Positions 1-49,554 of a stretch of 64,000 nt of DNA are shown piece by piece (position 1 is the first letter of the stretch; every line of letters starts with the position of its first letter). A model generated the notes under the pieces. The model did not search any database. It worked only from the letters and a program-made list of their open reading frames with translations, and was not told where the DNA came from. Source of the stretch: a virus; IMG/VR virus record IMGVR_UViG_3300035438_001058, positions 1-64,000 of that record. The stretch is one strand, 5' to 3'. Made by a program: the position numbers and the translations under genes.

Positions 1-2232
1 GCTTGAACTTTCAGTGGGTTGGAAGGAAAAATAGAGAAAGGTAATAAAGCTAAAGTAACTGCTGATGCTGTTGCCAAAGTTAAGGCGCACATTAAAGCGC
101 AATCTTTAGAAGTGGCTAAAGTATTTACACAAGCGGAAGCTGATGTTAACAGTCAAGTTAGAATTCCAGAAGACACTTTATCTCACGCAGCAAAACTTTT
201 AAATTTAAGTTTACCTGAAAAGTTAATTGTTGAAACTTCATCTGCTGAAGAAGTAGCTAAAAATTTAGATATAAGAAACAAAGTAATTGAAAAAGTAGTA
301 GAAAATTTTTATCTAAATTTTGCTATAAATCAATACTCACTTTCACAGATACTATACGGGGACGAAACTTTTTATAAATCTAAAGAAGACCAAACAAAAA
401 GGATTCAAATAGCAACTGCTACAGGAGACACTCTTTTAGTAGATGATAATCATGGAATACCTCGTGATTCCAAAGTAATGGTTGTTGAAGATTTAATTAG
501 AGTTGTAGATGAAGACTTAAGAAATATTCCAGCTGAAGCGTACAGAGCTGATTACGAAGCCTCTGATGCTGAAGGATTTATGCTGCCAGAATTCTACGAT
601 AAGATATCTAGAGCTTACGGGCAAGAAGCTATGACAGACATAGTAATGAAACCTGTTTATTTTTCTATCCAAAATGGCATTCCTGTAGCTATCAAATACT
701 CAGTTAAAGTATTGACGAATGAATTAGTAGATAAATTTCCTCACTTAGCTACTTATAGAGATGCTATGCGAGAAAGAGGAGCTGATCAAATGGTTTTCAA
801 ATCAGCTGTAAAAATCGGAGGTTTAAAAGGAATGGCTAAGTTAGATCAGAAAACAGGTGAGATTATTTCTACATCTGTAAACTCAGAAAACTTCTTAACT
901 TTAAACACTGCCAACTTAAGATTCCAATTAAACCCTGCGCACGATCCTGATGTATCTACAGCTAACCCTTCTCAAATTACAGCTCAAATTAATACTAATG
1001 GGCAAAATCCAAACGAAAGTTTTGAGTTAGCTAATTTAAACGCTGCTTTGTTAAACAGCGGGCTTAGAAGTGTGCAAAGTGATTTAAGATTGTCTGATAA
1101 AGGAACCCCAACAGAATCAACCGCCAGACAACTTCGTGAGACTATAATTAGATACGGAGAATCAAGTAACAATGCTGATGATGTTGTGAGGTTACTACAA
1201 TCCTCAGACCCAGTAACTTTTGATAAAGTTGATTTATCACTACCTTTGATAGCTGGACGTGTTGTGTCCACTATTGCGTCAATGATTTCCAGTGCTACTG
1301 TAGGTTTTAAATTCAAAGGTTCCAAACTAGTATTACAAGCGGATCTTGGAATTCAAAGTATCTATGACAGTGCATCTGGTAAAATGATGAAACGTAAACT
1401 TAATTACAGAGATTCTGAAGGTTATTGCGAAGTTATACTTCCAAGAATGTATGAAAACCATATGCAATTAGGCGACAAGTTAGTCCCTGGGCTTCAGAAT
1501 GGTGTAGTAGGCTTTAGAATACCGTCTACTAACTACCACTCTATGCTTCCATTGAAAGTAGTTGGGTTTTATGACGCACCATCAGGAGCAAAAGCAAACG
1601 TAGTTATAGCCCCTTCTGCTATAGTTTACTATCACGGATCTGACTATGATGTTGATAGTCTATTTATAATGAGAAAGTCTCAATTTAAAGACAAGAATCC
1701 TAAGGGAACTATTACTCCTACAGTAGATTTAAATACTATTTTATCTAAGTATTCCGATAAACATATTATTAATTCGGAGCTAGTAATAACAGCTGATTCA
1801 GTCGTAGGATTTAAAGGCACTAATCCTGCTAAAGCTGATCCTGTTACAGTAGATGGTTTGTTTTTGCACGAATACTTAGAAGGTAAAGTTATTGAAATGT
1901 CAAACCATACGGCAGCTTTATCCAGAACTTTGCTAACTGCTAAAACTCCTAAGGAAAAATCAGCTATAACTACACAACTAACTACTGCTAAAGATGATAT
2001 GTCTGTAATAGAAGATGTTATACAGCAATCTATTAAGAACAGCATAGTAGATTTATACACTACTAATATGTTAGATGTTAAGAATAGAACTGACTTGTTA
2101 ACTCCAATTTCTTTTGAGAATGTAAAGGGACTCAGAAGTGTTACAAAAGAAAAGCTATTGGAACTTTTAAAAGATGCTAATTTTCAAACAGATCTGCAAA
2201 ATGCGGGTATAATACAAAAAATATGTCAATAA
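1..2232 (+). CDS. Virion-packaged DNA-dependent RNA polymerase, catalytic part (5' end lies outside the window; in-frame TGA at 4-6)
   Basis: GFRIPST...YYHGSDYDVDSLF matches the two-barrel RNAP R-x-P and DxDxD catalytic motifs typical of crAss-like phage RNAPs. Frame 1 is open from base 1 apart from TGA at 4-6. Confidence 0.85.
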
Positions 2233-5200
2233 ATTGTTTAATAAATTTTACCACTGTAAATGAAGAGTCAGTCAGTTTTACGGAGGAACAATTTATAAGC
2301 TATGTTGCAGAGAATGGGTTTGGGGGGATGAAAATCCCCTCAGACAATCCATTGGCAAAATTAATAGTAAATAAATTAGATTTTCTTCGGCAGCCAGAAT
2401 CAGTTTCTGAATACTGAGCTAGAATGGCTATCAATAAAAGATTAATTGCGGAAGGAAAACCTACGTTAAATTCTAATACTTTATTAACATCAGCACAAGT
2501 AGACGCAGAATTAAATCCTTCTGGGCAGTTAACTGATTACAACACTCAAAGACAAATACGGTACAACACTTATTCAGGTATAGATCTAACAGGTATATCA
2601 GCAGCCTTTGGTAAAACTTTAGGATATGTTTTTGAAGCAGGGGCAATAGCATCTGTAATAGACGTTAATACTAAGGAAGTTATTGATCTAAATAAAGAAG
2701 AAGATGTCAAAGCTTTTTTAAAAAAATACGGTCAATACAGTATTGAAGCTGTTTTGAAAAACAATAAAAATTTTAAGATTGTTAGCAGGAAGGAGCCTGA
2801 GTTTACTAGTGCAAATCATTTTACAGTTGACAAAGAACCTTATACAGGTCTAAGTAGAAACACAAAGGGTAAATTTAAAAATATATTTGAGACAATTGAC
2901 TCTATTATCAACTTAGCTATTGACAACGTTAAAGAAGGTAAACTACACTTGATGGGTATTACAGGATCTAACGCAAATATATTCTTTTCTTTGTTAGCTA
3001 CAGGTATGCCTTTGAATACGGTAACACTTATAATGAAGAACCCTTTAATAGTAGAGCTAAGTACTAACGGTAAGAAAATAGATAACGCCGCCATTGATGT
3101 TAAAATAGGCGAATTAAAAAAGTCCTTAGAAGAACTTAAAGGTGAAGAGTATGTCAATATGCTATCAAAAAGTAAAGACATTGATACTAAGTTATTAGAA
3201 CAAATTTATTTAGGTGAACTTACTGGGGCTCTCGCCATAGAAGAAACTCTTAAATCTTTGCAGGTGCTTAGAAGTATGGCAGAAGTTGGTAAATATATGT
3301 TTAAAGCTTCTAAAGTATTTAAAGCTCTTATTAAACTTCCGAATAAAAAGTTTGAGATTGACGATACTGTAAATAATATAGAATCTTTAGGAATGTTTAA
3401 AGATGCCGCTGCGTCTGAAGCTGAGGTTAACAGTGAGTGGATAGATATAGCTGCAGAATTCGCGCGTACCAGCAATGACCCAGATATAGCTAGAGTACAA
3501 GCGCAGCAAGATCAAGAATTAGCTTTAAGTTTAGAAGAGTTAGAAGTTAAATCCTCTGCTAATTTAAAAAGGGAAGATCTTAAAACGAATGCCCAAGAGA
3601 AAGTTTCTGAGCTTTCTAAAACTATAAAAGAACTTAAAAGTAGAAAAACTAAAATTAATAAAATATTAGCAGGTGATAATATTTTATCCGAAGAAGAAAA
3701 GGCTATATTAGTAGAAGAACTAGATAAGAACGAATTAGAAGTAATAAGATTAGACAGTATAAGGGCTGATTTAAACAACGGTTTAACTAAAGTATCTAAT
3801 TATATAGCTAAACTAGTACAAACACCAGAAGGAAGCATTTTTGGTACTGAGAAAGCTGCTATACGTGCGGCATATGTTAATTCTGTTTTAAGAAAAACTG
3901 TTACTAGAGGTGTAGAAGGAAGATCAGATAGTCCTTTTACAACTGACACTACAATTTTAAGAATACCACACGTAGCATCTGTTTATAAAGTTCTTTTGAC
4001 CACACAAGGTTTATTGAATAAAACTTTCGCTGTTTACAATCCCACTATAACAAGTTTTATAAAGAATATAGTAGATAATTATAATATCTTTAAACAAGAG
4101 GACTCTACAGAAAATGTAGAAATAATTACCAAAGAATTCGTAAAATTTGTAGGATCTAATCTTACTTTTAAATTAGATGGGGCTGATTTTTCTACTGAAG
4201 TGCCTTATTCAGAATATCCTTTTGTATCCTCTAGAAATAAACAATATTGGGGGAAAGAAGCTTGGGCCCAAAGGTTTTTGGAAAAAGCTAGATTACTAGA
4301 TGATTCTAATGAAATGACAGAAAATAATTTTGTTAAAAATCTAGAGCTTAGCAATAATACTAAAACAGGACTTACTGAAGCTAGGATATTAGCTGATAAA
4401 GTAAAGGACGACGAAGTATTAGCTAGGATACGTAGAGATTTCGCAGCTTTAGCGGTAGATGAAACAGAGATAGCAGAAGGATATACTAGAGCGGACTTTG
4501 CTAGAGATATGTTTAAATACTCCCTTCTTTCATCTACTATGTATTACGAGAGAACTGGTTTTGCTCAAGTATTCCCAGAACATTGGGCAGTAGCGTATTC
4601 AAAATCGCTATCTTCCAGATTAAACGCTGTGCTGCCAAAAGACAGTGCGGCAACTGACATACATTTGGAAATGTTGAAGGACACCTTTATTACCCAGCTA
4701 ATGACTAACAATAGTTCTATGCTGAATTTCTTAAAGGCTAAACCTGAAGTAGTGGCTTCTAAGAAAGTAAACGGGAAAAAAGAAACTCTTTATGAAGGGT
4801 ATGACGAATTAAACAATGTACATTATCATCTAAAGTTTAAAGGGTCCCCTTATGAAGACGGTAAAAGTTCTGAATTTGTATCTCATTACGACAAAGCTGT
4901 ATATAGAGTTATTAAAACCCCGGGAAGTGTGGACACTTTCTATGTAAGAGTAGCTATGGCTCCCAACAGTAAGTTTTACAACTTTACTTTTAATAATTTA
5001 GGAGGTTCTGTACAACATCGGGAGATAACTTCTGGTAAATATTATGTAACACATTTAGACAATGCCAAAGGAAATGTTTTAAAAGCGCAACCTTTAACTA
5101 CTAACTTTTTGCCAGTAGGAACTGAGGTGCTTGCTTACGACCAAATGAATGTAGGTACTGACACTGCAACAGTTTATACGGTAACTAAAGTAAATGTTGA

Positions 5201-5951: not shown

Positions 5952-8900
5952 TGTGCCCAAATAAAAATTCACAAGAATGAAAAGATCTGGTTAGCAGATT
6001 TGGAGAAAAAGTAGCTTACATAAAATACTTTGCTTCAGACGAGATACAAACAGGAGATGAGCTTTCTAATATAAAAGAAAAGATTCGAGAAGCTGTATTA
6101 GGAAATGAAGAGTATTACGCTAAAAAATATGGGACATACCTAAAAGGATATTCAGCTACAAGTAATACTTTAGATGAAATGGTCGAAGCTTTTGCCCTCA
6201 GATTTACAGACTTGTCTCCAGTAATTAAAGGAGATGTAGTAGAAACTAATAAGGGAAATTTCTTATTGTTTCCAGAAGCAGATGCTGATTATGTTAGAAT
6301 GACCAATGTTCCTTCAGCAATGGACACCATGCTGCATGGTTTACAAGCAAAGTATGGCATACCGTTTACAGTTATAAATGATCCCAAACAAAAGTTTGCT
6401 GGCAAATACATAAATCAAGGGGATAAAAAGATGGTAGTGATTAACACTGCTTATGCTGATGAGAACACTCCTTTACACGAATATTATCACCCATTTGTCC
6501 GGTCCCTACTAGTTAGAAATAGACCTACTTTTGATATGCTTTTAAAGAAAGCAAGGTTAGATGGAGATGTTAGGAATGATTTAGAAGAAGTTGTAGTAGA
6601 CTTTTTAACTAAAAGTGCTAAGCAAAAAATAAATCTTAGTTTATTAGATGTTTTCTTTGATTTTATTAAGAAAATGTTAGGTATTAAACCTACCTTGACT
6701 ATTGATAATGCTACCACTTTAAGTGAAGTTATATCTTTAATAAATAAAGGAGAAGGTTTTAAAGAAGAAAGTACTTTAACCAAAGCTTATCAAAGAGCTG
6801 AAGATATGGCTAAAGACTTTAAAAACATGGTAAAAGACCGCAAAAAAGATGTAATAGTAGATTATATAGAAGCTCTTAAGAAGAACAGTAAAAATTATAA
6901 AACTTCTGACAGTAGTAATTTTTACCAAGATGATTCTAATAATGATGTAGCTAAACGTCTGTCTCCTTTTATAGGAGACGAAGACTTTGGGCAGTTCTCA
7001 CTTAAAGGCAAGAATAAAAAATACACTGTACCAGAGTTTAGGTTGAGAGAGTTATTAAGAAAGGCGGGTTTTAATTTGCAAGACAAGCCTTTAAGTACGG
7101 TAACAGAGACGTTTAAACTTGGAGATCAAACCTACACTGTGGCCCAATTATTAGCTGCGGAAGAATTGAAGTATAGTAAATTCCAGAAGTACGGTAAGAT
7201 GGTTCACTCTTTCTTACAGTTTAAACTTGAGACAGATCCAGACGCTAGAGTTAAAGCTAGAGCTGATGCTGTTAAGTATGCTAATGAATATCAAGCTGCT
7301 GGAGGTGAACCTTTTACTACTTTAGAAAATCACCCTAAACTTTCGGAAATTGATAAAAATTTTGAAGCGATATGTAAACGTGCGGGCATAACAATTACAG
7401 TGGATCTTGAGAAAGGAATTACCGCTAAAATGTTAGATAAAGTTCTTCCGGAGGTTATATTAGTATCTGATCTACTTACTGATGAAAATGGTGTGCCAAT
7501 TGGTACCACAGCTGATGGTATTATACAACACTCTAACGGAGAAATTTCCCTAATAGACTGGAAGACTGGTAATATAGTTAGTGATATGGGAACAGCTTAT
7601 TTAATGGCTTACGGAGAGAAGTTTGATTTAGCAGACTCGAAACTAAATAGAGGTTATTTGGAGTTAGCTTTCCGTGCAATGATATTAAAGGAGCAGCATC
7701 CAGACATGGTTTTTAGAAACATCAGAATAGTTAAACTTAATTATGATGGCTCTTCTCAGAATATGAATCTGGATCTAACACCTTTTTTAAATACTATAGG
7801 AGAATATTATAAGGTAAATAAACCTGAGATTTACGCCAAACTTCAATCGAAGAACCTATTGGAGGCAGCTTCATACGAAGGTGTTGGAGAAGATTTAGTA
7901 GGAGTGTATAAGCAAATTCCACAAGGATTGGAATATGCGGAACAAGTTGATTGGTTAAAAACTCAATTAGCAATATTACACGCCAATAAAACTAAAGAAG
8001 AGATTCAAAGAGACCCTGCTGTTCTTAAAAGATCTATTCAATTAACTAACGCAATATTAGAGTTAGAGAAAATTCCTGGAGCTAACTTTAACGAAAACAC
8101 TCCAGACCTTCCTTTTATAGGCAATCTAAAGAACTTTTCTGACATTGCTAATCCAAAGGTACAGACCTTACATAAAGTTTTATTAACAGCTAAAGAAACT
8201 ATACATAAAATAACTGGAGACAGGAATACTGAGCATGATAAATTAATGCTTGCTGTTGAAAAGGATGCTAAAGTAAAACGTAAAAACACAACCTTACAAG
8301 TGTCGGCTTCAGCTCTAGTACTTTACGGCGTAGTGGCGTATTCTTTCTTACCTTTTGCTGGAGGTTTATTACTGTACAAAATAGGTAAAAGAGCTTTTAC
8401 ATCTACAACTAAAGACTTTTACAGCTTTATGTGGAGACAGTCTACTGATGTGGGCCGTCCTGGTTACTATATGAATACTGGAGATACCTACATAGACGGG
8501 CAAGGTAAAGTTCAGAAGATGACTCAAGCTCAAACAGACTACAGGAATTTTATACAGCGTACTATGCGCGAAGATTTTAATAAAATTGCTAATAAAGTCG
8601 TCGGCCAAAAGTTGAGCGGGCAACCCATGTATATGTGGGAAAGACAAGGCTGGCCTTCTGAATTACCAGATGACTTTATGCCTCGCATTCCAAAACCAAC
8701 TGACGAACTTAGAGAAGAAGAAGACTTTACTTCTAATTATTTAGGTTTAAAAACAACTTTATCTAACAGCGCTCGTAAATACATGACATCATTTGTCGAG
8801 GATACTTTTGGTGATCCTGAAGGGACTATTCCTCTTAAGTATTTTAAGCACACAGGCTCTAGTGTAGTTGAAAATGGTATGCACTCTATGCACGCTGAAG

Positions 8901-19334: not shown

Positions 19335-19536
19335 TTTTATCTGTGATTATGAACATAACAGCATCTTCAACATCTGTCCACGGACCTTCCTCGCTGTCTC
19401 TAGCAGTACCTACATAACAGATTACATAGTTAAGATTATTAACCTTGACAATGTCGTAACTAAAGAACGCTTTTTTTGTAGGCAACGCGTCAGACCAAAG
19501 TATGTCTTTTTCAAGATATTTGATTTTATGTTCCAC
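19300..19536 (-). CDS. Small hypothetical protein
   Basis: 78-aa ORF with an overlapping operon arrangement. Confidence 0.55.
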   Translation of the reverse strand: MEHKIKYLEKDILWSDALPTKKAFFSYDIVKVNNLNYVICYVGTARDSEEGPWTDVEDAVMFIITDKSEKIKFAASTV

Positions 19537-19768
19537 TTTTTTCGTTAATTATTTGATAAGCTTTTTCTACAGCGTCTTCAAGAGTAGCAAATGGACCTTT
19601 ACTTGTCTTTACTACATACTTTCCAGCAACTGTGTCTTTGCTATAGGAAATTGTCAGCGTGTAAGTTAGCATTTTTCTTCTGCTTTTATAGACATTTAAA
19701 GTGTGCAAAACTTGACCAGACATTATCTCTATTGTTTGAACGTGCTTCTTACTTTTTGGAGTTGGCAT
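19526..19768 (-). CDS. Small hypothetical protein
   Basis: 80-aa ORF with an overlapping operon arrangement. Confidence 0.55.
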   Translation of the reverse strand: MPTPKSKKHVQTIEIMSGQVLHTLNVYKSRRKMLTYTLTISYSKDTVAGKYVVKTSKGPFATLEDAVEKAYQIINEKSGT

Positions 19769-44389: not shown

Positions 44390-44902
44390 TTAGTTTTCTG
44401 GTTCTGTGACGTTTTCTGGCTTCTCTTCTGGCTTCTCTTCTGGCTTCTCTTCTGGCTTCTCGATTGCACTCAAAGAAACCAATTGATTGTACAAAAAAGT
44501 ATCCGACATCGGATTGATGCAACTTACCGATATCCATTGTATCCGCGCATCTGCGGTTGAAACCTGGAATTTGCATTGTGCTGGCCCTGCATTTAGTTGC
44601 AAGGCAACTTTCAAATGCATCTTGCACGTGTAAGGTATGTTGCCTACTAAAATTTCGGCAGTTCCTGTGCATTGCATCTTCTCTGAAGCAATGGTATATG
44701 TTTTGTCATCGGCACCAACACGAGACTCGATACGAGACGTTGGTAGCCCGCTACATACGTAAGACTTCAGCGTCACCGCCTGTATCGGATCGTTCTGAAC
44801 GAGCGCAAAAAGTTTTTGGTTTACAGAGCCACCACCGCCTGTTGGCGAAGTGATAGCCGCAAAAGCCGCCTTAACGGCTTCAAGTTTAGTTACCTGGAAC
44901 AT
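44390..44902 (-). CDS. Hypothetical protein with a (KPEE)n acidic tail; first gene of the leftward arm
   Basis: 170-aa ORF; 12-bp tandem repeats at about 44415-44460. Confidence 0.7.
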   Translation of the reverse strand: MFQVTKLEAVKAAFAAITSPTGGGGSVNQKLFALVQNDPIQAVTLKSYVCSGLPTSRIESRVGADDKTYTIASEKMQCTGTAEILVGNIPYTCKMHLKVALQLNAGPAQCKFQVSTADARIQWISVSCINPMSDTFLYNQLVSLSAIEKPEEKPEEKPEEKPENVTEPEN

Positions 44903-44990
44903 AATTGAAATGATTTTATAATGTTAAAATGAAAAACGATATGAGTAACCCCCCACCCCATTTGTGCCAACAAAAGCGAAGCGGGGGTAT

Positions 44991-45160
44991 GAAGTTGGGG
45001 GCCTAACTCTTTAACCCGAATATGTAAGTTTGACTCTTTAACACGAATATGTAAGTTGGGGGCCAAGCTCTTTAATAGACATATATATATATATATATAT
45101 AAATGAAGGGGGGGGGTCTTTATATAAATGGGGGGGTATCTTTATTTTAAAGGGGGGCGT
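44991..45160. repeat. Direct-repeat, (AT)n and G-run cluster at the strand-divergence point (candidate origin or genome terminus)
   Basis: ACTCTTTAAC(C/A)CGAATATGTAAGTT at 45006 and 45033; AAGTTGGGGGCC twice; (AT)10 at 45081-45100; several G runs. Confidence 0.7.
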
Positions 45161-45178
45161 ATTTAGTCACTAGAATAC

Positions 45179-45209
45179 TTGCTTTTTCTCTTTTAATGTC
45201 GTATCTTTG
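45179..45209 (+). promoter_or_regulatory. Bacteroidota sigma-70-type promoter
   Basis: TTG-N20-TATCTTTG matches the -33 TTG / -7 TAnnTTTG consensus. Confidence 0.7.
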
Positions 45210-45222
45210 TAAGAAATGTTAT

Positions 45223-45444
45223 ATGGAAAAGATCAATCATCCCACTCACTATCAAGCTGGTAATGACACTTATGAGGTTATAAAGGTTATAGATGCGTGG
45301 GAATTAAATTTCAGTTTAGGGAATGTAGTTAAGTATCTTTATAGGGCTGGTAAGAAGGATAATGTGTTAGAGGATCTGCAAAAAGCCCTCTGGTATCTAC
45401 AAAATGAGATAAAAAACACAGAAAATAAAGTTTTTTTAAAATAA
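45223..45444 (+). CDS. DUF3310-like protein
   Basis: INHPTHY...EVIKVI...FSLGNVVKYLYRAGKK...EDLQKALWYL. Confidence 0.85.
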   Translation: MEKINHPTHYQAGNDTYEVIKVIDAWELNFSLGNVVKYLYRAGKKDNVLEDLQKALWYLQNEIKNTENKVFLK

Positions 45445-45477
45445 ATGAAAATAAATTGAAAATAAATGACAAAAAAC

Positions 45478-45508
45478 TTGCATTTCGCATTTTAATGTTG
45501 TATCTTTG
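45478..45508 (+). promoter_or_regulatory. Bacteroidota sigma-70-type promoter (second copy)
   Basis: TTG-N20-TATCTTTG; shares TTTTAATGTyGTATCTTTGTA with the 45179 copy. Confidence 0.7.
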
Positions 45509-45514
45509 TACTTA

Positions 45515-45940
45515 TTAACGAAGAAGCAATTCTTCCCTTGGAAACACCAATAGCAACCATCTCTGTCCGAAGAGATGTACGACCCTACGACACCACAGCA
45601 AGCACTGACGTAGTCCTGGGTCCAGAAGTCGGATTGCCTACTAAGTTAGTTTAGGGAGTAGGTGCTTTTCTCCGATAGTTGCGCAAATGCGTATCATAAA
45701 TGCGAGAATTACTGTTGATTAATAAGTCGGAAAACTTATTTTTTGGGTCGCCCTTAATTGCGGAGCACTGGCAGTATATTAAGTAGGATTCGTAAACCCC
45801 GACCGGCTCTTTGAGGTAGAGAAGGTTCTTGTCAAAACTTTAAAAAGTGGAGGCAGGGCATTGCTATATCTTAATGTGAACTACATCATCAACCCCCTAC
45901 CCCCTTCCAGGGGAGATTGATTTGAAAAAAATCAATCTAT
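45515..45940 (+). ncRNA. Candidate large structured non-coding RNA
   Basis: ORF-free, downstream of a promoter, with many nested stems (see findings). Confidence 0.55.
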
Positions 45941-45952
45941 AAAATAGAAATT

Positions 45953-46318
45953 ATGATAAAGATTACAACTGATTCCAAACTAGTTTTCTTCCAAAAGATT
46001 CTGGCTGTTATATCTGCTCTGTCTCCAGAGGACAAGCAGCTATCTTCTTCGGAGTTAGATACTCTATCAAGGTTTCTAGCTCTTCCCCGTCAGTATGATT
46101 ACTTTCCATTTACGGCTAAAGCTAGGAAAGAGATATATAGGCAGTACACTCCTAATATGTCAGTGCAGATTGTTTCTGCTAGAGTTACTTCTCTGATATT
46201 AAAAGGTTACCTTATAAGGGATGAAGATAATTTTGTAGATTTCTCCCCACAGATAAAGAAACTAAGGACACTAAATTCATTCGATGTTAAAATACAAGAT
46301 TCACCCACTAATAGCTAA
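45953..46318 (+). CDS. Putative winged-helix DNA-binding protein
   Basis: LSSSELDTL and VTSLILKGYLIR give a MarR-like pattern. Confidence 0.5.
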   Translation: MIKITTDSKLVFFQKILAVISALSPEDKQLSSSELDTLSRFLALPRQYDYFPFTAKARKEIYRQYTPNMSVQIVSARVTSLILKGYLIRDEDNFVDFSPQIKKLRTLNSFDVKIQDSPTNS

Positions 46319-46622
46319 GACAGCTGAAGACCTTAATATGCCTTTAGAGGTGGTAAGTTCAGTGGTATTACATGAGTTTGAAACCATAAAGAATAATATT
46401 GTTAATCCCATCTATCTAGGTTATAGGTTAGAGGATCTAGGTAAATTCTTCTTTAAAAGAAATCAGTATTATTCTGCGGCCTTTAGGTTGTTAATTAGGT
46501 ATAGGAAAGGTACAGTTAATAAGGAATTGCTTCAGAAGTTTATTCAGATGAGGCATTTAGTTAATAAATATTATTTTTTACAAAAGTATAAACGCCGATT
46601 TGGAAGTTGGCACTGGAAATAA
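46284..46622 (+). CDS. HU/IHF-like DNA-binding protein
   Basis: LIAKTAEDLNMPLEVVSSVV...YRLEDLGKF resembles the HU/IHF helix-helix-strand pattern. Confidence 0.55.
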   Translation: MLKYKIHPLIAKTAEDLNMPLEVVSSVVLHEFETIKNNIVNPIYLGYRLEDLGKFFFKRNQYYSAAFRLLIRYRKGTVNKELLQKFIQMRHLVNKYYFLQKYKRRFGSWHWK

Positions 46623-46623
46623 A

Positions 46624-46956
46624 ATGAACAGGAAAATGACAAATAACGCTAATTCTCAGCACGCTCAACAAGCAGCTATGAATCACCAAATGCACACACA
46701 CTCTATTACCGTACTTACTGAGTTGTACAAGAATACGCCAATTGAATCTAATTTAAGGCCAGCACTTGAGGAGGCATTACTAGGATTGCTAGAGCCATTC
46801 TTACCTAGGTTAGCTGCTCCACCAACATTTCAATCAACACTTGAACCAACATTTCAATCAAAAAGTATTCAATCAGAAGGTATTCAATCAGAAGGTGTTG
46901 TCTTAGACACCTATAATCCAGATTACACTTATACAGAATCTAAAATTATTCAGTAA
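46624..46956 (+). CDS. Hypothetical protein
   Basis: ORF 46600..46956; ATG 46624 follows the upstream stop. Confidence 0.55.
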   Translation: MNRKMTNNANSQHAQQAAMNHQMHTHSITVLTELYKNTPIESNLRPALEEALLGLLEPFLPRLAAPPTFQSTLEPTFQSKSIQSEGIQSEGVVLDTYNPDYTYTESKIIQ

Positions 46957-47321
46957 TGGTTTTAACTCAAGATAAAGTACTTATTCAGTTGGATGAACAT
47001 CCAGATCACACTGTGACAGAATCTAATATTTATATCCCACAGTTTATAAATGCTGAGTCAGATGGTGGGCGCCCAATGTCTATTCCTTCTAATCAGAAGT
47101 ATCTAGCTTCAGGTGTTGTGGTTGATTTATCAGATGCGGCTAAAAAGAAGATGGAAGATAACAACACTCCTATTAAGAAAGGAGATAAAGTTTTCGTATC
47201 TACATCGGTAGTTAACCAAGGTTATCATTTTCAACTTAAGAGAGATTCTATAGTTTATGATTTTGATGGTCTAGTACTAATTCCAACTATATTAATAGAG
47301 GCAATATTAAATGAAAAATAA
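46956..47321 (+). CDS. groES: GroES-like co-chaperonin
   Basis: DKVLIQ...TESNIYIP...SGVVV...IKKGDKV...IEAIL pattern. Confidence 0.65.
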   Translation: MVLTQDKVLIQLDEHPDHTVTESNIYIPQFINAESDGGRPMSIPSNQKYLASGVVVDLSDAAKKKMEDNNTPIKKGDKVFVSTSVVNQGYHFQLKRDSIVYDFDGLVLIPTILIEAILNEK

Positions 47322-47694
47322 ACAAAAACCTAATACTCCAAAATCAGAAGTATTAAAAACAATAGAAACCCCAATGGTAGAACAACATATTTTCGATAGT
47401 CTTAATAGCGAGCACTCAAAATTTAAGGAAGAAATATCTATTATTACGAGTGAGCTTGAGGCTGTTAAGAAAGAGAGAGAAGCCTTTCAAAATATAGCTA
47501 ATACAGCGGCTTCTAAGTTGGTAAGTATTGAATCTGCTGTTACTCCTTTTCTTAATAGAAAGTTCAATGTTGTAACAGCTATATATCATTTAAAGGATGT
47601 GGTCGAACTTATTAAACAGATTGTAGAAGCTGTTAAAGAATTCCGTGCTCAGTTTATGGCACCTAACGTTAAACCTGATGATTCTACTAAATAA
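47311..47694 (+). CDS. Coiled-coil hypothetical protein
   Basis: 127-aa ORF. Confidence 0.6.
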   Translation: MKNKQKPNTPKSEVLKTIETPMVEQHIFDSLNSEHSKFKEEISIITSELEAVKKEREAFQNIANTAASKLVSIESAVTPFLNRKFNVVTAIYHLKDVVELIKQIVEAVKEFRAQFMAPNVKPDDSTK

Positions 47695-48172
47695 TTTTGA
47701 TCCTTTTCAAGATTTTTTTAATAGCAATCCACAATTAAAGATCTTATTTAAAGATTATTTAAAAGTTCCTTCTTCCCATATGTGAGGTCTATTTCTATAT
47801 TCTCATCCAGACTCAAAGTTTTTTAATGAGTCTCCAGAAGATAGAAAAGACCTCATATTTAAGGATTATCTTAAGAAAGATAAGACATTTGATTGGGATA
47901 AATATGAGGAGCTATTAAAGAAGATTGAAGTCTCTGTTTTAACTAAAGCTCAAAGAGCCCTTATGAGATGGGAACAGACGTTACATGAACGGGATGATTT
48001 CATAGCTTCTATTCCTTATACTCTCGAGACTTTTGAGGCTAAGGATAAGATGATGGCGATTACCCCAAAGCTTTGAGATCAATATGAAGCTGTATTAGAT
48101 AGGTTGAATAAAGATCAAGGATCTACAATGGGGGACATAGAAGAGTCTCTATCAGAAAAAGGTATTATATAA
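47678..48172 (+). CDS. Hypothetical protein missing from the ORF track (164 aa with TGA 47783 and 48074 read as Trp); possible small terminase
   Basis: MILLNNFDPFQDFFNSNPQL...SSHM*GLFLYSHPDSKFF...TPKL*DQYE...EESLSEKGII-TAA fills the 47694-48183 gap. Confidence 0.75.
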
Positions 48173-48182
48173 TAAGAAGATT

Positions 48183-48464
48183 ATGCATACAGTAAAAAAC
48201 TTAGACAATTTAGATGTTCAGTCAGACGTTAAAATGAGTCGTCTTCAAGCTAACGAACAGATAATTAATCTTATCACTGATTATATGAGAACTTATACGG
48301 ACCAAAGGTTTGGGCAGATACTATATAATTTAGGTGTAGCTACACATTCCGTGTATCATACAATGCCGCAAGAAGGTGAAAGAGCTCAAGTTGGTTACAG
48401 AGATATATTCTTTGAAGAATCTGCTGAGACATTAAAGAAATTAACAATAAAAGATGGGGATTAA
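48183..48464 (+). CDS. Hypothetical phage protein
   Basis: YTDQRFGQIL...DIFFEES is a pattern seen in small phage proteins. Confidence 0.65.
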   Translation: MHTVKNLDNLDVQSDVKMSRLQANEQIINLITDYMRTYTDQRFGQILYNLGVATHSVYHTMPQEGERAQVGYRDIFFEESAETLKKLTIKDGD

Positions 48465-48477
48465 TTTCCCCTACATT

Positions 48478-48757
48478 GGGGGTGCCAGGTATTGATTGCA
48501 CTCATAGGTTTGGTATTACTAGCAAGCAGTCTAAAGACTATAAATTTAAATAATCGACAATAATACTAATGACTTTGGTATCGGACTTCCGTCCTTTTCC
48601 ACAGAAGCAGTTGCTCCTTCTGTTACTCAAGAGCAGCCAGTTTACCAGTACGCATAAGTTTACCACACTAATAGACTATAATATAGGTGTACAGAAGCTT
48701 GTAATTCTAGAATATTAAACGAGTCGTAAGACAGCGGTTCGAATCCGCTCACCTCCA
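48478..48757 (+). ncRNA. ssrA: tmRNA
   Basis: 5' GGGGGTG pairs with 3' CACCTCC-A, including a G3:U Ala identity pair. T arm AGCGG-TTCGAAT-CCGCT. Tag ORF 48556-48657 follows TAAATAATC and ends in YA-TAA. Confidence 0.9.
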
Positions 48758-48772
48758 CTAAAATTAATTATT

Positions 48773-49042
48773 ATGTTTATTTATGTTTATGGATTTCAAA
48801 ATTTAGACGGGAAGTCTAGTACAATAATCCCGTTAGCTATCCTCTCTAGCTCTATAACTGCTTTTAAAGAGTTTGTAGACGATAATACGCCAGAAAGAAA
48901 ATCTTTAATTGAGACAGATACAGGTATGTATTTTACCACGTCTTCTTTTGAAGAGTTAAAAGAAATGATTGATCCGGACACTGATTGGACAAGAGACGCC
49001 CCTGTTCCAGTAGAGCCTCTGCCTTTGAATATGGGACAATAA
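48773..49042 (+). CDS. Hypothetical protein
   Basis: 89-aa ORF. Confidence 0.6.
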   Translation: MFIYVYGFQNLDGKSSTIIPLAILSSSITAFKEFVDDNTPERKSLIETDTGMYFTTSSFEELKEMIDPDTDWTRDAPVPVEPLPLNMGQ

Positions 49043-49099
49043 ATCGCTAACAGTCGTTAGGTCTCGCCCTCCATGTCGTAAGATGTGAGGGGGCAATTC

Positions 49100-49171
49100 G
49101 GGGATATGGGGTAATCGGTAACCGGGAAGTCTTCAAAACTTTAGTTGTCTGTTCGAGTCAGACTGTCCTCG
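49100..49171 (+). tRNA. Opal (UGA) suppressor tRNA, anticodon UCA, probably tRNA-Trp
   Basis: Acceptor GGGGATA/TGTCCTC with discriminator G; anticodon arm GAAGT-CTTCAAA-ACTTT (TCA at 49133-49135); short variable loop; T arm GTCTG-TTCGAGT-CAGAC. Confidence 0.9.
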
Positions 49172-49188
49172 CCCACAAAATTTTTATT

Positions 49189-49554
49189 ATGGAAACTAAA
49201 TCACTTACGTCAATATTGACACTTTTTTTTCAACTGTCTAATGATCTTCATTGGCACCATTTAAATACCAAATCTTTTGCTGAACACAAAGCTTTGGAGT
49301 TTGCGTATGAAAAGATATTAGGTTATAAGGATACAATTGCTGAACAACTTATTCCGTTCGAAGGTAAACTTACGACTATGAAGTTATTATCTATACCTTC
49401 CTCTAAATGCGCAGAACTTCCTACTGATATTGTTATAGCTGCAGAAGCGCTCTGTGAGTTAGCTGAAGCTAAAGGCTACGATAATATAGAGAATTTATCG
49501 GAAGAGATTATAGGGGTTGCAGCCAAACTTAAATATTTATTAAACTTAGTATAA
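49189..49554 (+). CDS. Ferritin/Dps-like four-helix protein (DUF5856-like)
   Basis: LHWHHLNTKSFAEHKAL...DTIAEQ...IENLSEEI...LKYLL. Confidence 0.7.
   Translation: METKSLTSILTLFFQLSNDLHWHHLNTKSFAEHKALEFAYEKILGYKDTIAEQLIPFEGKLTTMKLLSIPSSKCAELPTDIVIAAEALCELAEAKGYDNIENLSEEIIGVAAKLKYLLNLV

What the first reader, a model, noticed from the sequence alone, without database searches (positions are those of the whole stretch)
45515..45940. About 400-nt highly structured RNA directly behind a host-type promoter
Seen: an ORF-free interval beginning just after TTG-N20-TATCTTTG (45478-45508). Stems: closing ATAGCAA (45550) / TTGCTAT (45861); CATCTCT-GTCCGA-AGAGATG; GACCC..GGGTC enclosing CTACG/CGTAG; TCGGA..TCCGA enclosing GCCTACT/AGTAGGT; AATAAGT-CGGAAA-ACTTATT; GGTCG..CGACC enclosing TTAATTGC/GCAGTATATTAA; final AGATTGATTT/AAATCAATCT hairpin. 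I do not recognise RNase P, SRP, 6S or group I/II intron signatures. Inference: a novel large ncRNA or a regulatory leader controlling the arm that carries the tmRNA and suppressor tRNA.
Basis: partly seen in the sequence, partly recalled or inferred. Interest (0 to 1): 0.7.

Follow-up and report, generated by a model that had tools for sequence, protein, structure and literature searches.

The report
New large folded RNA in lake phages
The gene-free 430 bases encode a real, intricately folded RNA that matches no catalogued RNA family and sits behind a strong host-type promoter at the head of the late-gene arm of a small group of freshwater crAss-like phages; what it does is still unknown.

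Summary
The flagged stretch is a real RNA gene. It has no open frame under any stop-codon reading and follows a Bacteroidota-type promoter (TTG-N20-TATCTTTG, 45478-45508). Five other lineages of related uncultured freshwater phages carry a homolog at the same place. These phages are crAss-like, read TGA as an amino acid, and carry a tmRNA and a tRNA(UCA).

Compensatory changes support at least seven helices. In the 5' domain 94% of cells pair, 11 of 23 pairs change on both sides, and 0 of 500 shuffles reach this. A long-range helix spans 55-115 nt. G-U pairs place the RNA on the + strand.

No Rfam family matches, even at E up to 10, and the genome has no reverse transcriptase. One lineage has a second, diverged copy behind the same promoter type. 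One of about 600 Bacteroidota genomes has a look-alike of the 5' domain in an integrative element. Two lake metatranscriptomes from one study hold contigs covering only this RNA, which is a weak sign of accumulation.

Function is unknown. I favour a stable trans-acting RNA over a cis-acting operon leader, but only narrowly. This scan has noted uncatalogued RNAs at the same position in gut crAss-like phages; crAss001's is not detectably similar.

The parts
45478..45508 (+). Bacteroidota-type promoter: -33 TTG (45478-45480), 20-nt spacer, -7 TATCTTTG (45501-45508). It is one of only two copies in the 85-kb genome of the extended motif TTTTAATGTYGTATCTTTG.
   Evidence: conserved in L002 and L121
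45514..45938 (+). The structured RNA, about 425 nt. The 5' end is inferred from the promoter and the 3' end from the last conserved hairpin.
   Evidence: G-U pairs fix the strand (invariant G-U at 45628/45676)
45520..45535 (+). Variable 5' hairpin GAAGAA-GCAA-TTCTTC. Relatives have a different hairpin or none here.
45558..45577 (+). H1 hairpin CATCTCT/AGAGATG
   Evidence: 5 of 7 pairs change on both sides
45581..45622 (+). H2: outer helix GACCC/GGGTC and inner helix GACAC(45589-45593)/GT-a-GTC(45610-45615) with a bulged A
   Evidence: 100% of cells paired; 2 of 5 and 3 of 5 pairs change on both sides
45623..45676 (+). Invariant junction CAGAA, then H3: GTCGGA(45628-45633)/TCCGAT(45671-45676), with a variable inner hairpin GCCTACT/AGTAGGT. 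This is the most conserved core (CAGAAGUCGG...CCGAUAG).
   Evidence: it is also the part shared with the paralog and with G149
45710..45776 (+). Central domain closed by the long-range helix Px, TACTGT(45710-45715)/GCAGTA(45771-45776). It encloses hairpin Py, AATAAGT(45721-45727)/ACTTATT(45734-45740), and the conserved GGAGCACTG (45762-45770).
   Evidence: Px: 34 of 36 cells paired, 4 of 6 positions change on both sides. Py: 36 of 36 paired, 6 of 6. The RNA-derived variant has T45723C with A45738G.
45777..45871 (+). 3' domain: TTAAG, AAAC, local hairpins, helix GTTCT(45825-45829)/AGGGC(45855-45859), then the conserved GCTATATCT (45863-45871)
   Evidence: this helix shows one-sided changes only
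45892..45938 (+). Two C-runs, the CCCC/GGGG hairpin (45901-45913) and the terminal hairpin AGATTGATTT(45914-45923)/AAATCAATCT(45929-45938). No U-tract follows.
   Evidence: (4 of 7 pairs of the terminal hairpin change on both sides)
45953..46318 (+). 121-aa ORF that follows the main copy in every lineage. The predicted fold is winged-helix-like with no strong PDB match.

Best explanation
Window 45514-45938 (+) is the gene for a previously uncatalogued three-domain structured RNA of about 425 nt. It belongs to a small clade of freshwater, TGA-recoded, crAss-like phages of Bacteroidota. I am about 0.93 confident of that part. Shown: it lies behind a strong host-type promoter at the strand switch, at the head of the rightward arm (winged-helix ORF, GroES-like, TerS-like, tmRNA, tRNA-UCA, GroEL, packaging and head genes). 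Its helices are kept by compensatory change, while its junctions and some loops are invariant in sequence (CAGAAGUCGG, CCGAUAG, GCACUG, UUAAG, AGGGCA..GCUAUAU). Inferred: host RNA polymerase transcribes it, and the folded RNA outlasts the downstream mRNA. It then acts in trans as a stable RNA that binds a protein, a ribosome component or copies of itself through its invariant unpaired segments, as is thought for the large phage RNAs ROOL and GOLLD. The stated confidence applies to this trans-acting reading, not to the existence of the RNA.
For: Existence and fold: ORF-free in all frames. Homologs occur in five further lineages at the same position. 5' domain: 94% of cells paired, 11 of 23 pairs change on both sides, 0 of 500 shuffles reach this, and slid controls pair at 32-46%. 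Long-range helix Px pairs 34 of 36 cells and Py pairs 36 of 36, with changes on both sides at 4 of 6 and 6 of 6 positions. G+C is 0.41-0.45 against about 0.27-0.37 in the flanks. MFE z-scores are negative in all seven copies. For trans action: in L308, L309 and L314 the RNA is followed by a hairpin, an A/U-rich spacer and a second full promoter before the 121-aa ORF, so there it is a separate unit. Two metatranscriptome runs each hold a single contig (45538-45803 and 45528-45789) inside the RNA and nothing else in 44800-49300; that variant carries a compensatory U-A to C-G change. The 5' domain recurs in a bacterial integrative element that is not at the head of an operon. The size and the invariant junctions go beyond known leaders.
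Against: In the window, L002 and L121, and in the paralog, no promoter or U-tract terminator separates the RNA from the next ORF, which starts 10-15 nt after it. All eight phage copies lie directly behind a promoter, as a cis-acting leader would. The RNA-seq evidence comes from assembled contigs of one study, found by searching with this very stretch, so it shows neither ends, nor strand, nor level. No partner, target or activity is known. The comparative set is small: six distinct main copies, one paralog and one bacterial half-match.
Confidence: 0.5

Rival explanations
1. It is a cis-acting operon leader. The nascent RNA, made first from the arm's promoter, acts on its own transcription complex or transcript. 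It could make RNA polymerase resistant to terminators across the long late arm, as the HK022 put RNAs do, or it could stabilise or gate the downstream mRNA.
For: Every phage copy lies directly behind a host-type promoter at the start of a transcription unit. The L309 lineage has two diverged copies, each behind the same promoter motif and each followed by genes, like putL and putR. In the window group and the paralog the ORF starts 10-15 nt after the RNA with no U-tract terminator. A boxA-like GCUCUUUA/GAGG is present in the window group (the resemblance is from my own recall of boxA and is untested).
Against: Three lineages place a complete second promoter between the RNA and the ORF, so the arm can be expressed without the RNA in its transcript. 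At about 425 nt with ten or more helices, it is several times larger than any known antitermination or leader element. The G149 half-homolog faces a convergent ORF. The boxA-like string is absent from L308, L309 and L314.
Confidence: 0.3
2. It is a catalytic or processing RNA, or an origin or primer transcript. Examples would be a ribozyme that matures the polycistronic tmRNA/tRNA transcript, or a ColE1 RNA II-like primer at the strand-switch origin.
For: The size and the invariant junctions are in the range of ribozymes. It lies at the strand switch, where GC skew turns. The 3' end has C-runs and a G-run. tmRNA and tRNA genes needing processing lie 2.5-3.5 kb downstream.
Against: No RNase P, intron or small-ribozyme model matches, even at E up to 10. 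The AGAAGUCGG/CCGGCUCU pairing that RNAalifold drew like a P4 helix conflicts with the covarying local helix H3 and is absent from L308, L309 and L314. The skew turn is explained by the change of gene orientation. The second copy 7-8 kb away does not fit a single origin.
Confidence: 0.1
3. It is a diverged member of the uncatalogued RNA family that this scan noted earlier in gut crAss-like phages, including crAss001, at the same genomic position.
For: The position is the same: an ORF-free 300-430 nt behind a host-type promoter at the strand switch, at the head of the arm with tRNAs. crAss001 681-998 lies between Gp2(-) and Gp3(+) (scan notes). The phages are related: the nearest cultured relative by the TerS-like protein is Cellulophaga phage phi14:2, which is in the same subfamily as crAss001.
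Against: The 5'-domain model R2, run with filters off, and a full-length nhmmer profile find nothing in crAss001 1-3000 or in the phi14:2 switch region. The reverse search with the crAss001 stretch finds nothing here. Short shared strings (GGUAG, CUGGCA, CUUAAG) fall in different structural contexts.
Confidence: 0.15

Closest known systems
ROOL (RF03087) and GOLLD (RF01998), the large ornate RNAs of phages and prophages (PMC12286853)
   Same: Phage-encoded, several hundred nucleotides long, with many helices and conserved junctions. No protein partner is known. They sit in genome regions holding tRNA-type genes. GOLLD was first found in lake metagenomes, and its expression rises late in infection according to PMC12286853.
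   Different: No Rfam match, even at E up to 10. This RNA is shorter (about 425 nt against 580-800+ nt). It lies 2.5-3.5 kb from the tmRNA and tRNA rather than beside them, and always directly behind a promoter at the strand switch. Multimer formation is untested.
HK022 put RNAs (putL, putR; from my own knowledge, no paper read here)
   Same: Phage RNA elements placed just downstream of promoters. There are two diverged copies per genome in one lineage, at the heads of long operons.
   Different: put is about 65-70 nt with two stem-loops, whereas this RNA is about 425 nt with three domains. Three lineages have a second promoter after it. No antitermination test has been done.
Uncatalogued RNA of about 310 nt in gut crAss-like phages, noted earlier by this scan (for example crAss001 681-998)
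   Same: Same genomic position and promoter type in related phages (Crassvirales).
   Different: No detectable similarity in sequence or in the 5'-domain model.
Bacterial RNase P RNA, type A (RF00010)
   Same: Similar length. There is a loose likeness of CAGAAGUCGG to the CR-I string and of AAACCC..CCGGCUC to CR-V (from my recall).
   Different: No covariance-model match. The would-be P4 pairing is not conserved and conflicts with the covarying helix H3. About 130 nt follow the would-be 3' strand of P4.

Membership tests
RNase P RNA (RF00010, RF00011 and relatives) | Match to the covariance model | tested here: not met
   No hit at gathering score or at E up to 10 in the window, L121, L308, L314, L312 or the paralog
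RNase P RNA (RF00010, RF00011 and relatives) | Long-range P4 pseudoknot between the CR-I and CR-V strings near the 3' end | tested here: not met
   The AGAAGUCGG/CCGGCUCU pairing appears only in the window group and never varies. GUCGG is used in the covarying helix H3. CCGGCUC is absent from L308, L309 and L314.
tmRNA (RF00023) | tRNA-like acceptor and T arm plus a tag reading frame | tested here: not met
   ARAGORN and Rfam find the phage's tmRNA at 48478-48758 and nothing at 45514-45938
Group I or group II intron | Covariance-model match and flanking exons of an interrupted gene on the same strand | tested here: not met
   No Rfam hit. The upstream gene ends at 45444, and a promoter lies between it and the RNA. 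An AAGATATAG-like string occurs only on the minus strand, while the G-U pairs put the RNA on the plus strand.
GOLLD (RF01998) / ROOL (RF03087) | Match to the family covariance model | tested here: not met
   No hit at E up to 10
GOLLD (RF01998) / ROOL (RF03087) | Homo-oligomeric cage assembly | not testable with these tools
   Needs native gels or cryo-EM of the transcript
Retron, DRT or UG27 ncRNA (PMC9226505) | Adjacent reverse transcriptase gene | tested here: not met
   No RVT_1 (PF00078) match anywhere in the 85-kb genome; the controls matched
HK022 put-type antiterminator RNA | Promoter-proximal position at the head of an operon | tested here: met
HK022 put-type antiterminator RNA | Two-stem-loop element of about 70 nt that makes RNA polymerase terminator-resistant in cis | tested here: inconclusive
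   The size and architecture differ (about 425 nt, three domains). The activity cannot be tested here.
The scan's earlier crAss-like late-promoter RNA (crAss001 681-998) | Detectable similarity in sequence or structure | tested here: not met
   R2 with filters off and nhmmer in both directions find nothing. Only the 5'-domain model and sequence profiles were tried.

The most novel reading that the evidence does not exclude
This is a new class of large ornate phage RNA that forms part of the phage's code-switch and translation kit. It would act on the host translation machinery during the late phase, when TGA must be read as an amino acid, for example as a decoy or scaffold for a ribosomal component or release factor 2, or as a ribozyme. 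Its conserved 5' domain (CAGAAGUCGG...CCGAUAG) would be a mobile RNA module shared with bacterial integrative elements.
Probability: 0.15. Interest if true: 0.9.

Novelty: new variant of a known kind. Interest (0 to 1): 0.7.

Why it matters
Large, intricately folded bacterial and phage RNAs are rare. Most classes found so far turned out to be ribozymes, riboswitch-like sensors or, most recently, self-assembling RNA cages.

This one is new at the family level. Its fold is well supported. It sits at a meaningful place: the first thing transcribed from the arm that carries the packaging genes, chaperonins, tmRNA and the opal-suppressor tRNA of phages that switch the meaning of TGA.

Together with the scan's earlier notes on gut crAss-like phages, it suggests a general rule. 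Crassvirales may place a structured RNA directly behind the host-type promoter at the strand switch, even though the RNAs themselves are not alike in sequence. That makes the question of what the late-arm head RNA does in crAss-like phages directly testable.

The paralog and the bacterial half-match offer natural variants for dissecting the conserved 5' module.

Tried and rejected
**Collection scans**
- Exact-pattern scans with conserved blocks gave only the known relative or chance hits in coding DNA. The scans were viral contigs and genome contigs. nhmmer and reading the loci confirmed this.

**Relatives that gave nothing**
- GroEL relatives at 41% identity or less (L123-L129) have no homolog.
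- blastn against GenBank phages found only a promoter-like 52-nt match for the window and nothing for L309.

The more distant relatives known only from protein hits (P0005-P0009, contigs of about 101 kb) therefore could not be fetched.

**Ideas tested and dropped**
- The idea that two AGCACUG loops act as seed sites was dropped, because the motif in H2 is not conserved in L308, L309 or L314.
- An RNAduplex search against the tmRNA and tRNA gave meaningless full-length duplexes.
- A T-box-like sensor of tRNA(UCA) was considered. The conserved UGA in CCCCCUGARCUC reads UAA in L002 and L121, and no T-box model matches.

**Chance model hits**
- The covariance-model hits L318 and L325 lie in coding repeats and are chance.

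**Side checks**
- The fold search of the 121-aa protein gave only weak winged-helix matches.
- RNA runs X19 and X20 have no contigs on the flanking genes or on the tmRNA. I do not count this absence as evidence of absence.

Full report
**What is in the sequence**

The window comes from an 85,208-base IMG/VR virus record. Between the stop of an 82-aa DUF3310 gene (45444) and the ATG of a 121-aa gene (45953), all six frames carry 7-12 stop codons of all three kinds. No reassignment of a stop codon opens a frame. This matters because the phage reads TGA as sense in many genes: summed ORF length rises from 52 kb to 70 kb when TGA is not a stop.

It reads TTG (45478-45480), a 20-nt spacer, then TATCTTTG (45501-45508), which is the Bacteroidota -33/-7 type. 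Its extended form, TTTTAATGTYGTATCTTTG, occurs only twice in the whole genome. One copy is here and the other is 300 nt upstream, in front of the 82-aa gene. G+C is 0.41-0.45 inside the stretch and about 0.27-0.37 on both sides.

**Catalogue searches**

Rfam 15 (4227 families) finds only the phage's tmRNA (48478-48760) and tRNA (49100-49171) in the window at gathering score. At E up to 10 nothing meaningful falls on the stretch, on four homologs or on the paralog. ARAGORN agrees. The genome has no reverse transcriptase, so the RNA is not a retron, DRT or UG27-type ncRNA (PMC9226505).

**Relatives**

Exact-pattern scans mostly gave chance hits. Neighbouring proteins gave the homologs.
- The 121-aa ORF led to L002 (IMG/VR) and L121 (an ENA contig of 100,628 b).
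- The most conserved neighbour is a 175-aa protein with an in-frame TGA. Its phi14:2 homolog, g095, lies immediately upstream of the terminase large subunit, so it is likely a small terminase subunit. It led to L308, L314 and the L309-L313 group.

All carry the RNA at the same place. RNA identity to the window falls from 69% (L002) to 51% (L309). Gene order downstream is conserved: RNA, 121 aa, 112 aa, GroES-like, 127 aa, 175 aa, 93 aa, tmRNA, and further on tRNA(UCA) and GroEL. The upstream side is not conserved.

The nearest cultured relative by the 175-aa protein (35% identity) is Cellulophaga phage phi14:2 (Crassvirales, Steigviridae, Asinivirinae). DNA runs holding the stretch are lake and freshwater metagenomes from many studies. 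These are therefore freshwater crAss-like phages, most likely of Flavobacteriia-type hosts.

**The fold**

A six-sequence alignment of the 5' domain (A7), and a model-guided seven-sequence alignment that includes the paralog (A8), give four helices of 23 pairs.
- 94% of cells are paired.
- 11 pairs change on both sides.
- The covariation score is 0.46-0.48, against 0.17-0.20 in shuffles.
- 0 of 500 shuffles reach the observed values on four of the five measures; further pair types do not exceed the shuffles (247 and 134 of 500).
- Only 32-46% of cells pair when the 3' partners are slid by 1-3 columns.

These helices are H1 (45558-45577), H2 outer (45581-85/45618-22), H2 inner with a bulged A (45589-93/45610-15) and H3 (45628-33/45671-76). 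Between H2 and H3 lies the invariant CAGAA.

In the middle, a long-range helix Px (45710-15/45771-76) closes a domain of 55 to 115 nt. It pairs 34 of 36 cells, with changes on both sides at 4 of 6 positions.

The 3' domain holds several parts:
- the conserved strings UUAAG and AAAUAAAC;
- lineage-specific hairpins;
- a helix GYYCU/AGGGC, which shows one-sided changes only;
- the conserved GCUAUAU;
- two C-runs and a CCCC/GGGG hairpin;
- a terminal hairpin that covaries.

Invariant G-U pairs, such as 45628/45676, would be A-C mismatches on the other strand, so the RNA is on the + strand. MFE z-scores are modest but negative in all seven copies, from -1.1 to -3.1.

Five of the seven hold. The closing stem ATAGCAA/TTGCTAT is specific to the window: 3-4 pairs remain elsewhere, and L309 lacks the 5' strand altogether. 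The GGTCG..CGACC / TTAATTGC..GCAGTATATTAA hairpin is replaced by Px.

**Expression**

Logan contigs of four runs were laid on 44800-49300. The two metatranscriptome runs, which are two samples of one study, each gave exactly one contig inside the RNA: 45538-45803 and 45528-45789, about 97% identical to the window. One of the two (X20) also gave a 35-nt partial piece at 46820-46854, with loose ends on both sides. Neither gave anything on the tmRNA. The DNA runs covered most of the stretch.

The RNA-derived variant carries T45723C together with A45738G, a U-A to C-G swap in hairpin Py. It also carries C45665A, which adds a pair to the inner stem of H3. This is a weak hint that the RNA accumulates. 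Contigs show no ends, strand or level, and the runs were found by searching with this very stretch.

**Leader or free-standing RNA**

In the window, L002 and L121 the layout is promoter, RNA, then the ORF 13-20 nt later, with no U-tract. In L308, L309 and L314 the RNA is instead followed by a hairpin, an A/U-rich spacer and a full copy of the strong promoter (ACTTGAC..TGTTGTATCTTTG), and only then the ORF. In those lineages the arm can be expressed without the RNA in its transcript.

The L309 lineage has a second, diverged copy (35.9 bits with R1, 54.3 bits with R2) 7.4-8.4 kb upstream. It appears on three independent contigs, behind the same promoter motif, and is followed at once by a 56-aa ORF. 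It keeps H1-H3, the junctions, GCACUG with a Px helix (CUACAG/CUGUAG), an 8-bp Py and CCUAUAUCU. It lacks the 3' C-run hairpins.

These facts pull both ways. I put the stable trans-acting reading at 0.5 and the cis-acting leader at 0.3. The readings overlap, so my odds across them do not sum to one.

**A bacterial look-alike**

Models of the 5' domain were run over about 600 Bacteroidota genomes. One credible match appeared, G149:C9:23843-23958, at 29.7 bits with R1, which was built without it. It reads GUAC-GGCUGG...CCAGCC-CAGAAGUCGGA...UCCGAUAG: the junctions are kept and H2 is wholly re-paired.

It lies in an integrative element, in the order tRNA-Ser, tyrosine integrase, HTH_17 excisionase-like gene, then the RNA. 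Only the 5' domain is alike. With a single case this is a lead, not a result. Two weaker model hits lie in coding DNA and are chance.

**Relation to earlier notes of this scan**

Earlier agents reported uncatalogued RNAs of 260-430 nt directly behind host-type promoters at the head of the late-gene and tRNA arm in gut crAss-like phages, including crAss001. I checked crAss001. Positions 681-998 are indeed ORF-free, between Gp2(-) and Gp3(+) and ahead of a tRNA array. However, the R2 model with filters off and nhmmer in both directions find no similarity to the present RNA. The phi14:2 switch region gives none either. The position is shared, but homology is not shown.

**Verdict**

This is a real structured RNA that is new at the family level. 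The kind is known: large phage-borne RNAs of unknown function. Its function is open.

Noticed in passing
window 45179-45209 and 45478-45508: These are two near-identical copies of a strong Bacteroidota-type promoter (TTGC..TTTTAATGTYGTATCTTTG), 300 nt apart, and the only two in the 85-kb genome. The first drives an 82-aa DUF3310 gene and the second drives the RNA. In relatives the same motif sits after the RNA instead.
   Followed up: partly
L317:1230-1617 (-) = G004:C1 about 19,350-19,741; also G583:32360-32474 and G584:21593-21707: The L309 lineage carries a second, diverged copy of the RNA 7.4-8.4 kb upstream of the main one. It lies behind the same promoter motif, is followed directly by a 56-aa ORF with a hydrophobic tail, and lacks the 3' C-run hairpins.
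   Followed up: partly
L324:9844-9959 (-) = G149:C9:23843-23958: A Bacteroidota genome holds a look-alike of the 5' domain (CAGAAGUCGGA...UCCGAUAG with a re-paired H2). It sits in an integrative element beside tRNA-Ser, a tyrosine integrase and an HTH_17 excisionase-like gene. It was the only credible hit in about 600 genomes searched.
   Followed up: partly
window 47645-48172: This 175-aa gene with an in-frame TGA is the best conserved protein of the arm (75-79% identity among relatives). Its homolog in Cellulophaga phage phi14:2 (g095, 35% identity) lies immediately upstream of the terminase large subunit, so it is probably the small terminase subunit.
   Followed up: partly
window 45953-46318: A 121-aa protein follows the main RNA copy in every lineage. 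The AlphaFold model (pLDDT 87) is winged-helix-like. It gives only weak PDB matches (eS19, cullin WHB, DtxR/Fur-type repressors, T4 MotA activation domain).
   Followed up: partly
window 48478-48758 and 49099-49175; L309:5521-5767 and 6593-6686; L314:5550-5810; L121:5539-5866; L308:7418-7511: Each relative carries at least one of the two RNA genes downstream of the RNA: a short tmRNA with an unusually long tag of 30-33 residues ending in YA, and a tRNA with anticodon UCA. L309 and L312 show both within the fetched locus. The tRNA is 72-77 nt in the window but 94 nt with a long extra arm in L308 and L309.
   Followed up: no
L326 (crAss001) 681-998; L315 (phi14:2) 1019-1376: Both cultured relatives have an ORF-free 320-360 nt at the same strand switch. 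In phi14:2, two ORF annotations there were withdrawn in 2020. Neither stretch resembles the RNA studied here.
   Followed up: partly
L308:2900-2990 and L314:2900-2985: In these two relatives the gene just upstream of the RNA ends in a ...GEWF... motif. From memory this resembles T5orf172/GIY-YIG-type homing-endonuclease domains. I did not test it.
   Followed up: no
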